From NCBI GenBank assembly GCA_964654025.1, contig CAZZIF010000002.1:883-64882 (forward strand): DNA of 64,000 nucleotides, written 5' to 3'. Numbering within the stretch: the stretch's first letter is position 1; each line of letters begins with the position of its first letter. Below the pieces are notes generated by a model, which had not been told where the DNA came from, did no database searches, and saw only the letters and a list, made by a program, of their open reading frames with translations. Shown here piece after piece: positions 50,189 to 57,242 of the stretch. The position numbers and the translations under genes were made by a program. This DNA comes from an uncultured bacterium. Lineage in GTDB: Bacteria > Eisenbacteria > RBG-16-71-46 > CAIMUX01 > WJJG01.

Positions 50189-51133
50189 CTAGTCTTCCAG
50201 AACCACCCGGCCTGAAACCAAGTCCAACAGCTCTCCGGTGATGGCCTGTTGGCGTTGCTGGTTGTGCTGCTGGGTGAGATCGTCCAAACGGTCCTCGATG
50301 TCTTGCTCGGCCGCCTGCATCGACGTCAACCGACTCGCCTGCTCACTGGCCGCCGACTCGGCCAGTGCGCGGAACATGGTGACGAACAGGTACTGCCGGA
50401 TGAGACCTGCGAGAAGCCGGTCCCGGTTCATGCGTGCGATCGGAAGTGAACGAGAGTGCCACGGACGGTTGACGAGATGCCGCAGATGAGACAGGTCCAG
50501 GGGCCAGAGGGTCGTCTCCTCCGGGCGGTATCGGGAGGCCGAGAGGCGCCGGTTGTGGAAGAGGCGAATGCGCTGGATGGCGTGTTCGCTTCGCCATCGT
50601 TCGGCCTGGACGAGAGCCTCGCCGGCTTGCCGGGCGATGCCCTCGGCCTGCGGGGGCACGTCGACGCGGCGGCTCACCCTCAGGCCGGCATCTTGGAGTC
50701 GGGCGGCGACCCGCTCTCCGATCGCCAAGATCCTCGGGCGGGTATCGTCGGTATCTTCGGGTTCGGAGGGACCACCGCCGCCGTCGCCGGCCTTCGGATT
50801 CCCGGCCGTCGACTCAGCATCGCGAGCCAGCTTCTCGATAGCCAGCGAGGCGATATCGTCATTGAACTGCCCGCACATTCCCTGATCCGATCCGATCACG
50901 ATCGCGGCCGTCTCCCGGCCGAGGGGAGTCAGCACTTCCTTCAGTTTCGCGTCCGAGTTTCGCAGCGCAACCTGAAGGGCCAGATCAATCGCCTGCCCCC
51001 ACTCCCCCACGGCGTCGGCCGCGTGCTCGTATTGCCGGATACTGGCGGCAGCGAGGGCCTTCATGCTCTTGACGACCGAATGGAGGTCCTTCGTGCGCTC
51101 GATGCGTCGCTGAAGTGCTCCGAGGGTTTGCAT
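50189..51133 (-). CDS. atpG: N-ATPase (F-type) gamma subunit
   Basis: Gamma N- and C-terminal coiled-coil motifs (RRIERTKDLHSVVKSMKALAAAS, ...ITGELLDLVSG). Contains an acidic ~35-aa insertion (GNPKAGDGGGGPSEPEDTDD). Confidence 0.8.
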   Translation of the reverse strand: MQTLGALQRRIERTKDLHSVVKSMKALAAASIRQYEHAADAVGEWGQAIDLALQVALRNSDAKLKEVLTPLGRETAAIVIGSDQGMCGQFNDDIASLAIEKLARDAESTAGNPKAGDGGGGPSEPEDTDDTRPRILAIGERVAARLQDAGLRVSRRVDVPPQAEGIARQAGEALVQAERWRSEHAIQRIRLFHNRRLSASRYRPEETTLWPLDLSHLRHLVNRPWHSRSLPIARMNRDRLLAGLIRQYLFVTMFRALAESAASEQASRLTSMQAAEQDIEDRLDDLTQQHNQQRQQAITGELLDLVSGRVVLED

Positions 51134-51142
51134 GGACGTACC

Positions 51143-52741
51143 TCATCCACGTTTCTTCAGGATCGACCGGGCCGCGTCCAAGAACGCCTGGCGGTCCTCA
51201 TCCAAGAGCTTCTCCCCGTCCCGGATGCGTTGACTCTGGTCTGCGAGCTTCCCGGGAACCGTGTCTTGGATCTCGCCCAGGACCTCACCCACCTGCTCGG
51301 TGGGCACCGAGTCGAAGAGCCCCTCGTTGAGGGACAGTAAGACGGCGATCTGCTCCGGGACGGTGCGTGGGTGATACTGTGGTTGCTTGAGCACTTCACG
51401 CACCCGGCGGCCTCGCGCCAACGTGGCCTTGGTTTCCTCGTCGAGTCGTGTTCCGAACCGGGCGAAGGACTCCAGCTCTTCGAACTGCGAATACGCCAGG
51501 CGGAGATCTCCCGCAACGGCCCGGTACGCGTCCAGCTGGGCCTTGCCGCCCACGCGTGAGACCGACTTGCCGACATCGACCGCCGGCAAGACGCCTCGTT
51601 GCTGTAGGGTGGGCGAGAGGTAGATCTGCCCATCAGTGATCGAGATCAGGTTCGTGGGGATGTAGGCCGAGATGTTCTGCGCTTGCGTCTCGATGATCGG
51701 CAGGGCCGTTACCGAACCACCGCCCTCCCGATCGCGGAGATGGGTGGCACGTTCGAGCAATCGCGCGTGGACGTAGAAGATATCACCGGGATAGGCTTCA
51801 CGAGCCGGCGGTCGACGCAGAAGCAGGGAGAGTTCCCGGTAGGCCCGGGCGTGCCGGGTGAGATCGTCGAAGACCACCAGTGCATCTTGGCCTTGATCCA
51901 TGTAGTACTCAGCCATGCTCATCGCCGCGTAGGGCGCCACGTACTTGAGACCGGGGGGCTCGTCGCCACCTGCGAAGACGACCGTGCAGGTGTCGAACGC
52001 TCCGTGGGATCGCAAATCGTCGACGACTCGGGCCACGGCCGTGCCGCGCAGGCCGATGGCGCAGTAGATGCATCGAACCTGGGTATCCCGCTGATTGAGG
52101 ATCGCATCGATCGCGATGGCGGTCTTGCCGGTGCGGCGATCCCCGAGAATCAGCTCCCGTTGTCCACGGCCAACCGGAATGAGCGCATCCACGACCCTCA
52201 GTCCAGTCTGCAGCGGAACCGAGACGGGCGCGCGATCGAGGATCTCCGGCGCCGATCGTTCGATTGGACGCCGCTCCTCGGTCTCCACGGGCCCCTGGCG
52301 GTCGAGCGGCCGCCCGGTTGGATCGATGACGCGCCCCAACAGCTTATCGCCCACGGGTACATCCACAACACGGCCCGTCCGCCGAACGATCGATCGCGAC
52401 CCAATCTCGTCCCAGGCATCCAGGAGGGCAATGCCGACCCGGTTGGGCTTCAGCGTGAGGGCCATGCCGCGGAAGCCGCCCTCGAAATGAAGCAGCTCCT
52501 GGGAGCCCACGTGGGGAAGCCCGTCGGCATCGGCGACGCCACGTCCCACCTGCAGAACGGTGCCGACCTCCTCGATGTCCAGCCGGGCAGGCTGGTCCTG
52601 CAGGGTTTGCTCTACCGCGGAGGCCACATCTTCAAGCACGCCTTCGAGCACGCCTTCGAGCGCGCCTTCAAGCGTGCCTTCAGGCACGGCTTCAGGCACG
52701 TCTGCAAGACCGTGCCGGTTGGTGCTGTTTGGGGCCGTCAT
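51143..52741 (-). CDS. atpA: N-ATPase (F-type) alpha subunit; N-terminus carries an in-frame 12-bp x7 tandem repeat encoding (VPEA/TLEG/VLEG) repeats
   Basis: P-loop [15 protein letters not shown]. Repeat at 52631-52714 inside the CDS. Confidence 0.85.
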
Positions 52742-55020: not shown

Positions 55021-55431
55021 CTACCGTGATTCCTGACGGTTCTGGATGCGTTCGGCTTCGCCTCCGCCTTCCGATGGGGGCGGTCCCTGCCCGGTTGCGG
55101 GCGAATCGTCCCGATGGATCTGTTCTCGTTCGCGGCGCACCCAGAACCATGCGTTTAGGCAGCCCAGGGTCACGCCGATGATCATGAACGTCAGCGTCCA
55201 GGAAACGGAGGTGCCTGAATGGCCTTGTTGGGCATCGAGCCAGAGTCCTACCACGATGCCGATCACCGTAGGGATGGCCACGGACCAGCCGACGATGCCG
55301 AAGGTCCCCAACCCGAACCACAGGCTGTGCTCCTTCTGCTTTGCGGCGCGCATTTTGCGCCGACGTTTCCGCTCGGCGGCCTGGCGGAAGCGCTTGGCCC
55401 CGGGCTCCATTCGGGGAGCGGGCTTAGGCAC
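55021..55431 (-). CDS. atpQ: N-ATPase accessory membrane protein AtpQ (AtpZ/AtpI-like)
   Basis: 136 aa. Basic N-terminus then 2-3 TM helices. Position after atpC is characteristic of atpDCQRBEFAG. Confidence 0.5.
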   Translation of the reverse strand: MPKPAPRMEPGAKRFRQAAERKRRRKMRAAKQKEHSLWFGLGTFGIVGWSVAIPTVIGIVVGLWLDAQQGHSGTSVSWTLTFMIIGVTLGCLNAWFWVRREREQIHRDDSPATGQGPPPSEGGGEAERIQNRQESR

Positions 55432-55813
55432 GTTCCCGAACCTCCAGATAGCGGCGGATGAAATCCGCCTCCAATCTAGCCGCCGCCGCGCGGGCGCGTT
55501 TCTCCTGTTCGTCTACCTGGAGGAACCTCTCTTCGACAGCGCGTTCCAGGTCTTTCAGTGAGCCCCCGCGCACGGCGTCTCGCACCGCCACCCACACCGT
55601 GTCTCCCCGCTTCACCACAGCGCCCTCGTCCACCGCCACCCATTCGGTCTCGCCTTCGCCCCGGTCCAGAGAGATCAGGCCCGCCACTTGCAGCGCCGCC
55701 ATATCGATGTGGCGGGGCAGGATGACGTAACTGCCTCCTGGCGCCTCGGCGCCGAGGCGCGTCACCTCCTCCTCGAGGAGTAGCTCATTGGCGGTCATCA
55801 GCTTCAGTATCAT
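55424..55813 (-). CDS. atpC: N-ATPase epsilon subunit
   Basis: Beta-sandwich epsilon pattern [18 protein letters not shown]...[17 protein letters not shown]. Start ambiguous (55828, 55813 or 55798). Confidence 0.7.
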
Positions 55814-57242
55814 TCTTCTCCCCGCCATCCCCGTGGGAACCGGATCGATCGGCTTCGCCGATGGCGCCGATCATGTAGACCGACTTTTCGGGCAGGTCGC
55901 TGAATTCGTCGCTCAGGATGCGTTCGCACCCCTCGACCGCGTCTTCTCGCGGAACGAGCTTGCCCTTCTGATTCGTGAACGCCTCGGTTGTGAAGAAGGG
56001 CTGGGTGAGGAAGCGCTCGATCCGCCGGGCACGGCGAACCGTCTTCTGGTCCTCCTGTGAGAGTTCCTCCATTCCGAGCATCGCGATGATGTCCTTGAGT
56101 TGCTCGTATTCGGCGAGTGCCTGCCGTACGTCTTGGGCCACCCGGTAGTGTCGTTCGCCCACGACGTGAGGCATCAGCATCTTGGAGTCGGATTGGAGGG
56201 GGTTGATGGCCGGATACAGCCCCTGGCTGGCGCGGTCGCGGGACAGCACGATCGAGGAGGAGAGATGGCCGAAGGTGTGCACGGCGGCGGGGTCGGTGAA
56301 ATCGTCGGCCGGGACATAGACGGCCTGAACCGACGTGATGGCCCCATTGCGTGTGCTGCAGATGCGCTCCTCGAGTTCTGCCAGTTCAGTGGCCAGCGTC
56401 GGTTGGTAGCCCACGCGTGACGGGAGAGCTCCCATGAGCCCGGACACCTCGGCGCCGGCCTGTACGAACCGAAAGATGTTGTCAATGAGCAGGAGGACAT
56501 CCTGATGACGCTGGTCCCGGAAGTACTCGGCCGCGGTGAGGGCACTGTGCCCCACCCGGAATCGTGCCCCGGGCTGTTCGTTCATCTGCCCGAAGACCAG
56601 CACCGCTTGGTCGAGCACGTCGACCTCTCGCATCTCACGATGGAGTTCTTCGCCCTCGCGGCAGCGCTCACCGATGCCGCAGAAGATGCTGACGCCCTCG
56701 TGATGAGCGGCCATGTTGTGGATCATCTCCATGATGAGCACCGTCTTGCCGACGCCCGCACCGCCGAACAAACCGGCCTTGCCACCTCGCTCGAGGGGCG
56801 CCAGTAGATCGATGGCCTTGATGCCGGTTTCGAACAGGTCGGTGCTGGTGACGCGCTCGCTCAGGGGAACGGGATGCGCGCGGATCGGCCGATGTTCCTC
56901 AGCGGGCACGGGATCCTTCTGATCGAGTGGATCCCCAAAAACGTTCATGACCCGTCCGAGCAATCCGTCTCCGACGGGGACCCGGATCGGCCCGCCGGTG
57001 GCTTCCACGCGGGCGCCTCTTTGAAGACCGGCAGTCGGCGTCAGTGCGATCGTCTGTGCGACGGTAGCGCTTTCGTGCGCCATCACTTCGAGGGCCACTT
57101 CGGGCGAGCCACGGACCTGAAGCCGCTCGTGGAGGGGAGGTGGGCCGCCGGGGAAATGCACCTCGACGACGCCGGCCTGGACTCCGACGACCGTTCCTGT
57201 GCCGGCGCGGTTCGCGCGCCGGTCTGCTTCGAAAGCTTTCAT
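55785..57242 (-). CDS. atpD: N-ATPase beta subunit
   Basis: P-loop [15 protein letters not shown]-like region. The ATG at 57242 is preferred over the ORF-track start (57461). Confidence 0.85.

What the first reader, a model, noticed from the sequence alone, without database searches (positions are those of the whole stretch)
50189..57242. Complete N-type (Na+-translocating) ATPase operon atpDCQRBEFAG
The minus-strand gene order (beta-epsilon-Q-R-a-c-b-alpha-gamma), the AtpQ/AtpR membrane proteins and the absence of a delta subunit are the N-ATPase hallmarks. Subunit c carries the full Na+-binding set, Q in helix 1 and E-S-T...Y in helix 2 (MIESTAIY). The gamma subunit has an acidic ~35-aa insertion and the b subunit is unusually long (296 aa). 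N-ATPases are laterally transferred, supplementary to the housekeeping F-ATPase, and associated with salt tolerance.
Basis: partly seen in the sequence, partly recalled or inferred. Interest (0 to 1): 0.6.

Follow-up and report, generated by a model that had tools for sequence, protein, structure and literature searches.

The report
Ordinary N-type (sodium-pump) ATPase operon
This stretch is an intact nine-gene operon for an N-type rotary ATPase, a known accessory relative of ATP synthase thought to pump sodium out of the cell, here in an uncultured bacterium; it is a normal member of a family already catalogued in about 1,800 genomes.

Summary
Window 50189-57242, minus strand, holds nine intact genes in the order atpD-C-Q-R-B-E-F-A-G. 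Each product has an N-ATPase-specific model as its best or near-best match (NCBIfam alt_F1F0 set, AtpR PF12966, AtpQ PF09527). All 80 related genomic loci keep this order as far as their contigs reach.

- The helix-1 ion ligand of subunit c is Glu30, not Gln. The site is E30 / E63-S64-T65...Y68. This is the two-carboxylate Na+ motif of Fusobacterium nucleatum and the norm for N-ATPases (66 of 67 relatives).
- Delta is not absent. It is fused to the C-terminus of b (Pfam OSCP hit, residues 190-257).
- Subunit b is probably 284 aa, not 296.
- The gamma insertion is 21 aa, not about 35, and occurs only in this lineage.

Catalytic motifs, a-Arg164 and the two AtpR arginines are conserved. dN/dS against a sister MAG is 0.14, so the operon is functional. 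GC3 and codon usage match the flanks, so there is no sign of recent transfer.

Na+ coupling is a sequence-based prediction; the B. pseudomallei N-ATPase is H+-coupled. I could not test whether the genome has a second rotary ATPase.

Verdict: a new member of a known kind, of low interest.

The parts
55785..57242 (-). atpD, N-ATPase beta subunit (485 aa)
   Evidence: TIGR03305 alt_F1F0 beta scores 750.8 bits, against 615.8 bits for the F-type atpD model. Walker A GGAGVGKT at 160, GER at 191, LLLIDN at 250 and EELSQED at 392 are present. The start at 57242 is supported by the sister gene call and an upstream frame-breaking indel.
55424..55828 (-). atpC, epsilon subunit (134 aa from 55828, or 129 aa from the ATG at 55813 as called in the sister contig)
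   Evidence: TIGR03166 alt_F1F0 epsilon scores 118.4 bits, above its cut-off of 100.1; PF02823 also hits. His40 is present. The gene overlaps the end of atpD.
55021..55431 (-). atpQ, small membrane protein (136 aa) with two hydrophobic segments and a 35-aa polar C-terminal tail
   Evidence: PF09527 ATPase_gene1 at 1.6e-11; TIGR02230 scores 113.5 bits against a cut-off of 46.7.
54645..54941 (-). atpR, the N-ATPase-specific membrane protein (98 aa)
   Evidence: PF12966 AtpR at 8.2e-17; TIGR03165 scores 57.8 bits against a cut-off of 55.5. Arg49 is conserved in 98% and Arg80 in 90% of 51 homologues. These are the two membrane-embedded arginines described in PMC2881411.
53934..54605 (-). atpB, subunit a (223 aa), the stator ion channel
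   Evidence: TIGR03306 altF1_A scores 309.5 bits against a cut-off of 302.1. Arg164 in RLFGN is invariant in 53 homologues.
53604..53873 (-). atpE, subunit c (89 aa), the rotor ring with a two-carboxylate Na+-type site: E30 / E63-S64-T65...Y68
   Evidence: TIGR03322 alt_F1F0 c scores 153.4 bits against a cut-off of 130.85. The alignment to PDB 1yce and 3zk1 places E30 on Q32/E32, E63 on E65, S64 on S66, T65 on T67 and Y68 on Y70. The protein is 100% identical to the sister MAG's, with dS 0.15.
52738..53592 (-). atpF, b-delta fusion stator stalk (284 aa from GTG 53592; the 296-aa ORF from TTG 53628 is probably over-extended)
   Evidence: TIGR03321 alt_F1F0 b scores 222.5 bits against a cut-off of 224.7. 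PF00430 covers residues 19-143 and PF00213 OSCP covers residues 190-257 at 5.7e-07. The start codon is supported. There is a 40-aa acidic C-terminal tail.
51143..52741 (-). atpA, alpha subunit (532 aa) with an N-terminal extension of about 31 aa that contains an in-frame 12-nt tandem repeat
   Evidence: TIGR03324 alt_F1F0 alpha scores 773.7 bits against a cut-off of 750.5. GDRRTGKT at 200 and SVSRVG at 393 are present. Its ATG overlaps the atpF stop (ATGA). The repeat at 52630-52708 is 48 nt longer than in the sister contigs.
50189..51133 (-). atpG, gamma subunit (314 aa)
   Evidence: TIGR03323 alt_F1F0 gamma scores 271.3 bits against a cut-off of 282.35, matched in two stretches split by the insertion; PF00231 hits at 1.6e-50.
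50753..50815 (-). Lineage-specific 21-aa Gly-rich, acidic insertion in gamma (ESTAGNPKAGDGGGGPSEPED, residues 107-127)
   Evidence: Absent from 15 other N-ATPase gamma subunits. Present, and 3 aa longer, in the sister MAG L001.
57243..57460 (.). Divergent intergenic region between atpD and the PolX gene, with a 17-nt direct repeat (57259-57298) that ends 17 nt upstream of the atpD ATG
   Evidence: TRF result and alignment with L081/L082. No sigma-70 consensus promoter and no Rfam family was found.

Best explanation
This is a functional N-type rotary ATPase (N1No), a distinct subfamily of F-type ATPases.

Shown by sequence: nine intact genes; catalytic P-loops in alpha and beta; the a-subunit Arg164; a c subunit whose ion site has every side chain of the F. 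nucleatum Na+ site (E30, E63, S64, T65, Y68); a b subunit carrying a delta-like C-terminal domain; and AtpR with its two membrane arginines.

Inferred mechanism: the alpha3beta3 head hydrolyses ATP and turns gamma-epsilon and the c-ring. Each c subunit carries one Na+, bound between E63/S64 of one subunit, E30, a backbone carbonyl and a T65-held water. E30 stays protonated. Arg164 of subunit a displaces the ion into the outward half-channel. A b-delta dimer holds the stator. AtpR, and perhaps AtpQ, help assemble the two-glutamate c-ring.

Inferred role: ATP-driven Na+ extrusion for salt and ion homeostasis, alongside a separate main ATP synthase. This fits the adjacent osmotic-stress genes: a GH65 phosphorylase, a HAD/trehalose-phosphatase fusion, OsmC and a 6xBON protein.
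For: - All nine products hit N-ATPase models.
- All 80 related loci keep the same gene order as far as their contigs reach.
- The c-subunit ligands are positionally conserved against PDB 1yce and 3zk1, and the same motif occurs in most relatives.
- F. nucleatum residues E32, E65, S66, T67 and Y70 are crystallographic Na+-site residues (PMC3692424).
- Catalytic and stator residues are intact.
- dN/dS against the sister MAG is 0.00-0.30 per gene and 0.14 overall.
- The osmotic-stress neighbours are conserved in the sister MAG.
- Family-level function comes from the literature: PMC2881411, and PMC11738941, which predicts 914 of 1,807 N-ATPases to be Na+-coupled using the same full-motif rule.
- In 8 related loci a Na+/H+ exchanger gene is embedded in the operon, linking the family to Na+ handling.
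Against: - Ion specificity and direction of operation are not measured.
- The only N-ATPase c-ring tested in detail (B. pseudomallei) is H+-specific despite having two glutamates, though it has ETM..Y rather than EST..Y (PMC5376962).
- Two-carboxylate sites can have raised H+ selectivity (M. acetivorans; PMC3692424).
- The presence of another rotary ATPase in this genome is unknown.
- Beta, b and gamma score just under the NCBIfam 'exception' cut-offs (750.8 vs 752; 222.5 vs 224.7; 271.3 vs 282.35).
- No promoter or terminator was detected by consensus scan.
Confidence: 0.72

Rival explanations
1. It is an N-ATPase, but H+-coupled: an ATP-driven proton pump for pH homeostasis, as in Burkholderia pseudomallei.
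For: The B. pseudomallei N-type c17 ring is H+-specific by NCD-4 labelling, although sequence had predicted Na+ (PMC5376962). ProAD predicts 893 of 1,807 N-ATPases to be H+-coupled. Two-carboxylate sites can shift towards H+ (PMC3692424).
Against: B. pseudomallei has E61-T62-M63..Y66 and so lacks the Ser and Thr ligands. The window has the full E63-S64-T65..Y68 plus E30, identical in ligand set to the crystallographically Na+-bound F. nucleatum ring.
Confidence: 0.17
2. It is the organism's main or only rotary ATPase and works as a Na+-driven ATP synthase rather than as an accessory pump.
For: No second alpha, beta or c homologue lies in the 64-kb window. Most genomes of the Chloroflexota genus T78 (18 of 20) encode only an N-type enzyme (PMC11738941). 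The Aphanothece halophytica enzyme was published as a Na+-dependent ATP synthase (title cited in PMC9927469).
Against: In complete genomes, N-ATPases are nearly always second copies (PMC2881411; PMC4154653; PMC11738941). A 64-kb window is a small fraction of a genome, so absence there says little.
Confidence: 0.1
3. It is a decaying, non-functional remnant of a horizontally acquired operon.
For: Degenerate or partial N-ATPase loci exist elsewhere, for example in Chlorobaculum tepidum and Nitrosococcus halophilus (PMC4154653). Low-complexity insertions and tails occur in gamma, b, AtpQ and alpha.
Against: All nine ORFs are intact with full-length model coverage. Catalytic residues are conserved. 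dN/dS is 0.14 overall, and subunit c is 100% identical to the sister's at dS 0.15.
Confidence: 0.01

Closest known systems
N-ATPase (alternate F1Fo ATPase, atpDCQRBEFAG; Dibrova, Galperin & Mulkidjanian 2010)
   Same: Gene order, AtpR with two membrane arginines, AtpQ, no separate delta gene, a long b with a delta-like C-terminus, a c subunit with Glu in both helices plus ESTxxY, and GC content matching the host.
   Different: Only lineage-specific decorations differ: a 21-aa acidic, Gly-rich loop in gamma, an alpha N-terminal extension with a variable tetrapeptide repeat, and acidic tails on b and AtpQ. Whether it is a second copy in the genome is unknown.
Fusobacterium nucleatum F-type Na+ ATP synthase c11 ring (PDB 3ZK1, two-carboxylate motif)
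   Same: An identical set of ion-site side chains: E32/E65/S66/T67/Y70 correspond to E30/E63/S64/T65/Y68. Subunit c is 40% identical overall.
   Different: That enzyme is a housekeeping F-type synthase with a canonical operon and a separate delta. Its helix-1 motif is GxGxGxGxG, against SxGxAxGxG here, so ring size may differ. The loop is RQPE, against QQPD here.
Burkholderia pseudomallei N-type ATPase (c17 ring, H+-specific)
   Same: The same operon type, with E30 in helix 1, a-subunit Arg164 and epsilon His40 at the same positions.
   Different: The B. pseudomallei c subunit has ETM..Y and so lacks the Ser/Thr Na+ ligands. Its helix-1 motif is AxGxAxAxG. It has been shown experimentally to be H+-coupled.
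Ilyobacter tartaricus Na+ F-ATP synthase c11 ring (PDB 1YCE)
   Same: The ESTxxY motif and the position of the helix-1 ligand align exactly.
   Different: The helix-1 ligand there is Gln32; here it is Glu30. It is also an F-type housekeeping enzyme.

Membership tests
N-ATPase (N-type rotary ATPase) | Operon order atpD-atpC-atpQ-atpR-atpB-atpE-atpF-atpA-atpG | tested here: met
   ORF map and family assignments. All 80 related loci keep the same order as far as their contigs reach.
N-ATPase (N-type rotary ATPase) | atpR present, with two conserved Arg residues in transmembrane segments | tested here: met
   PF12966 at 8.2e-17; TIGR03165 at 57.8 bits against a cut-off of 55.5. Arg49 is conserved in 98% and Arg80 in 90% of 51 homologues.
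N-ATPase (N-type rotary ATPase) | atpQ ('gene 1', PF09527) present in place of atpI | tested here: met
   PF09527 at 1.6e-11; TIGR02230 at 113.5 bits against a cut-off of 46.7.
N-ATPase (N-type rotary ATPase) | No separate delta gene; a long b subunit whose C-terminus resembles delta/OSCP | tested here: met
   No delta ORF lies in the operon. Subunit b residues 190-257 hit PF00213 OSCP at 30.2 bits against a cut-off of 22.3, and also several NCBIfam delta models.
N-ATPase (N-type rotary ATPase) | Subunits group with N-type rather than F-type homologues | tested here: met
   The alt_F1F0 model is the top hit for 8 of the 9 products; for epsilon it is second, behind a generic epsilon model, but above its own cut-off. 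Beta scores 750.8 against 615.8 bits for the F-type model; alpha scores 773.7 against 693.6/615.8. All 80 of the closest beta homologues lie in N-type operons. Beta, b and gamma fall 1-11 bits below the 'exception' cut-offs; gamma does so because of its insertion. No explicit tree was built.
N-ATPase (N-type rotary ATPase) | c subunit with Glu in the middle of both helices | tested here: met
   E30 and E63. 66 of 67 related c subunits have Glu at the helix-1 position.
N-ATPase (N-type rotary ATPase) | Present as an additional rotary ATPase beside an F- or A-type enzyme | not testable with these tools
   Only 64 kb of the genome is available, and it holds no second alpha, beta or c homologue.
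Na+-binding c-ring (I. tartaricus / F. nucleatum type) | Full Na+ ligand set: Q/E (helix 1), E, S, T and Y of ESTxxY, positionally aligned | tested here: met
   E30/E63/S64/T65/Y68 align with 1yce Q32/E65/S66/T67/Y70 and with 3zk1 E32. Ligand roles are taken from PMC3692424.
Na+-binding c-ring (I. tartaricus / F. nucleatum type) | Demonstrated Na+ binding or transport | not testable with these tools
   This needs biochemistry: Na+ protection from NCD-4/DCCD labelling, or 22Na+ transport.

The most novel reading that the evidence does not exclude
In this uncultured lineage the N-ATPase is not an accessory pump. It would be the sole or principal rotary ATPase, running as a Na+-coupled synthase. 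Alternatively, its lineage-specific decorations would form a new regulatory or halo-adaptive layer on the enzyme. Those decorations are the acidic Gly-rich gamma loop, the copy-number-variable tetrapeptide repeat at the alpha N-terminus (where alpha meets the delta-like domain), and the acidic tails on b and AtpQ.
Probability: 0.08. Interest if true: 0.45.

Novelty: new member of a known kind. Interest (0 to 1): 0.15.

Why it matters
It matters little beyond annotation. N-ATPases were defined in 2010, and a 2025 survey lists 1,807 of them in GTDB genomes, about half predicted to be Na+-coupled. This operon adds one more, in an uncultured bacterium. Its closest relatives are an unnamed MAG (96% beta identity) and a Candidatus Eisenbacteria MAG (73%).

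It is useful as a marker that the organism probably copes with Na+ or osmotic stress, given the conserved neighbours for trehalose metabolism, OsmC and a BON-domain protein. The finding also corrects a common shortcut: in N-ATPases the helix-1 ligand is Glu, not Gln, and ion specificity cannot be taken from family membership alone.

Tried and rejected
- Second ATP synthase in the genome: tblastn of all nine subunits against the window found only the operon itself and alpha/beta cross-hits. The question stays open.
- Exact-sequence look-up of the window's gamma found nothing. Look-up of subunit c found only sister contigs.
- Sample and MAG accessions (SRP141376, SRR7048224, GCA_964573295, ERZ10759765) appear in no held paper, so the habitat is unknown.
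- Recent horizontal transfer: GC, GC3 and RSCU of the operon do not differ from 11 flanking genes. This rejects it as positive evidence, though it does not exclude an old transfer.
- Regulatory elements: there is no sigma-70 consensus promoter, the terminator-like hits are at the level of shuffled controls, and no Rfam family reaches threshold anywhere in the window.
- The 558-aa long ORF for beta and the 296-aa b were rejected in favour of 485 aa and 284 aa.
- The Aphanothece halophytica paper (PMC3060469) is not held, so it is cited only through another paper's reference list.
- Structure prediction was considered for b and gamma but not run. Pfam and the literature already settle the b-delta fusion, and the tool output would not locate a disordered loop.

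
Full report
**What is there.** The minus strand of window 50189-57242 carries nine consecutive ORFs with short gaps or small overlaps. Pfam and NCBIfam assign them, in transcription order, as follows:

| Gene | Subunit | Top N-ATPase model | Score |
|---|---|---|---|
| atpD | beta | TIGR03305 | 750.8 bits |
| atpC | epsilon | TIGR03166 | 118.4 bits |
| atpQ | AtpQ | PF09527 / TIGR02230 | 1.6e-11 / 113.5 bits |
| atpR | AtpR | PF12966 / TIGR03165 | 8.2e-17 / 57.8 bits |
| atpB | a | TIGR03306 | 309.5 bits |
| atpE | c | TIGR03322 | 153.4 bits |
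| atpF | b | TIGR03321 | 222.5 bits |
| atpA | alpha | TIGR03324 | 773.7 bits |
| atpG | gamma | TIGR03323 | 271.3 bits |

The 'alternate F1Fo' model outscores the ordinary F-type model for every subunit except epsilon, where it is second to a generic epsilon model but passes its own cut-off. Examples are beta at 750.8 against 615.8 bits and alpha at 773.7 against 693.6 bits. Beta, b and gamma fall 1-11 bits short of NCBI's strict 'exception' cut-offs; for gamma the match is split by an insertion. The operon is bounded by a convergent OsmC gene (49666-50136) and a divergent PolX gene (57461-59194).

**Relatives.**
- A genome-collection scan with beta returned 80 loci at 62-96% identity from more than 15 phyla.
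- All 80 loci show the same beta-epsilon-Q-R-a-c-b-alpha-gamma order as far as their contigs reach.
- The closest is contig CAZNJE010000028.1 of an unnamed MAG, GCA_964573295.1. It is collinear with window 45814-64000 at about 91% nucleotide identity.
- The next closest is a Candidatus Eisenbacteria MAG (beta 73%). It also shares a PEP-utilising enzyme gene at 72% nucleotide identity, but in a different arrangement.

**Gene models.**
- The sister's gene calls and the family-model coordinates support beta at 485 aa. A 1-nt indel upstream in L081 rules out the 558-aa ORF.
- Epsilon is 129-134 aa.
- Subunit b is 284 aa, starting at GTG 53592 behind an AGGA. The sister has the same GTG start and the same length.
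- The alpha ATG overlaps the b stop (ATGA).

**The c subunit.** Alignment with solved c-rings puts window Glu30 on I. tartaricus Gln32 and on F. nucleatum Glu32. It puts E63-S64-T65 and Y68 on E65-S66-T67 and Y70.
- This is the family norm. Dibrova et al. describe the Gln-to-Glu substitution as a feature of nearly all N-ATPase c subunits (PMC2881411). Here, 66 of 67 related c subunits have Glu at that position, and 57 of the 66 readable helix-2 motifs are ESTAIY.
- In the F. nucleatum crystal structure, Na+ is bound by Glu32, Glu65, Ser66, the Val63 carbonyl and a water held by Thr67. Tyr70 and Ser66 hydrogen-bond to Glu65, and Glu32 stays protonated (PMC3692424). The window protein has every one of those side chains.
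- By the rule used in the 2025 ProAD survey (full motif means Na+), it would be called Na+-specific (PMC11738941).
- The caveat is the B. pseudomallei N-ATPase. Its c17 ring is H+-specific, contrary to the sequence-based prediction, but it has E61-T62-M63..Y66 and so lacks the Ser and Thr ligands (PMC5376962).
- The helix-1 packing motif here is SxGxAxGxG. It is GxGxGxGxG in the c11 rings and AxGxAxAxG in the c17 ring, so ring size cannot be inferred.

**Other functional residues.**
- Beta has [17 protein letters not shown] and EELSQED.
- Alpha has GDRRTGKT and SVSRVG.
- Subunit a has RLFGN, with Arg164 invariant in 53 homologues.
- Epsilon has His40.
- AtpR Arg49 and Arg80 are conserved in 98% and 90% of 51 homologues.
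- Subunit b residues 190-257 match Pfam OSCP above its gathering score, so delta is fused rather than missing. This was already described for the family (PMC2881411; PMC11738941).

**Is it functional?** Against the sister MAG, dS is 0.15-0.27 and dN/dS is 0.00-0.30 for the nine genes, 0.14 overall. Subunit c is identical in protein sequence. The operon is under purifying selection and is not a remnant.

**Lineage-specific features.**
- Gamma carries a 21-aa Gly-rich acidic insertion at residues 107-127. It is shared only with the sister MAG, where it is 3 aa longer, and is absent from 15 other N-ATPase gammas.
- Subunit b has a 40-aa acidic tail and AtpQ has a 35-aa polar tail.
- Alpha has an N-terminal extension of about 31 aa beyond the family model. 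It contains an in-frame 12-nt tandem repeat that is four units longer than in the sister contigs.
- These look like low-complexity expansions in a genome rich in short tandem repeats (35 TRF rows in 64 kb). No function can be assigned to them.

**Horizontal transfer.**
- GC3 is 0.77 in the operon and 0.76 in 11 flanking genes.
- RSCU correlation between operon and flanks is 0.94, within the flank-versus-flank range of 0.93-0.98.
- The GC profile shows no step.
- There is therefore no compositional sign of recent acquisition. This agrees with the published observation that N-ATPase GC content tracks the host (PMC2881411).
- The wide spread of close beta homologues across phyla is compatible with old lateral spread, but no tree was built.

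**Context.** The neighbours are a GH65 phosphorylase, a HAD/trehalose-phosphatase fusion, OsmC, a six-BON-domain protein, a DJ-1/PfpI protein and a LuxR-type response regulator. The genes nearest the operon, including GH65, the HAD/trehalose-phosphatase fusion, OsmC and the response regulator, are also present on the sister contig as far as it was fetched. This fits a salt or osmotic-stress role but does not prove it.

**What could not be tested.** I could not determine whether the genome has a separate F- or A-type ATPase. The window has none, but 64 kb says little. The literature says N-ATPases are nearly always second copies, with the Chloroflexota genus T78 as an exception.

**Verdict.** This is a correct identification of an ordinary N-ATPase operon, with several wrong details. 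It is a new member of a known kind. Na+ coupling is likely (about 0.7), and N-ATPase membership is near certain.

Noticed in passing
L008:12011-13297; also between atpQ and atpR in L020, L025, L027, L028, L029, L031 and L061; fragments in L015, L033 and L035; adjacent upstream of atpD in L013: A Na+/H+ exchanger family gene (PF00999, 2.4e-46, about 415-428 aa) is inserted inside the N-ATPase operon between atpQ and atpR in 8 of 80 related loci from several phyla. Truncated remnants occur in three more. The window lacks it: its atpQ-atpR gap is 80 nt, with no tblastn hit. The papers I read did not describe this arrangement.
   Followed up: partly
window 52630-52708: A 12-nt tandem repeat (about 6.6 copies) lies in frame in the 5' end of atpA and encodes LEGV-type tetrapeptides. 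It is 48 nt (4 units) longer than in sister contigs L081 and L083, so it is a copy-number-variable coding repeat at the alpha N-terminus.
   Followed up: partly
window 49294-49377: A 12-nt tandem repeat of 7 copies has a unit about 75% similar to the atpA repeat unit. It lies in the N-terminal part of the long ORF of the HAD/trehalose-phosphatase gene. The sister's gene call (531 aa against 601 aa) implies that the true start is Met71 and that the repeat is just upstream of the gene.
   Followed up: partly
window 57259-57298: A 17-nt direct repeat (2.4 copies, GCGGCAGGGRAACACTC-like on the minus strand) ends 17 nt upstream of the atpD start codon and is conserved in L081 and L082. It could be a regulator binding site or just another minisatellite.
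   Followed up: partly
window 1-64000: The window is unusually rich in short tandem repeats: 35 TRF rows with periods of 9-30 nt, many near gene boundaries (for example 3258-3412, 7932-8040, 14938-15031, 18263-18364, 29179-29240 and 63885-63968).
   Followed up: no
window 45247-50136: A GH65 glycoside phosphorylase (819 aa), a HAD (beta-phosphoglucomutase-like) plus trehalose-phosphatase fusion, and OsmC lie directly downstream of the operon. The same arrangement is found in sister MAG contig L081. A six-BON-domain protein (39565-41169) and a DJ-1/PfpI protein (41272-42099) lie further on, beyond the stretch of the sister contig that was fetched. Together they look like an osmotic-stress neighbourhood.
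   Followed up: partly
L002:7785-9785 compared with window 37541-39541: In the Candidatus Eisenbacteria MAG, a PEP-utilising enzyme gene (72% nucleotide identity to the window's) lies immediately upstream of atpD and on the same strand. In the window it is 18 kb away on the opposite strand, so the operon's neighbourhood is rearranged between these relatives.
   Followed up: no
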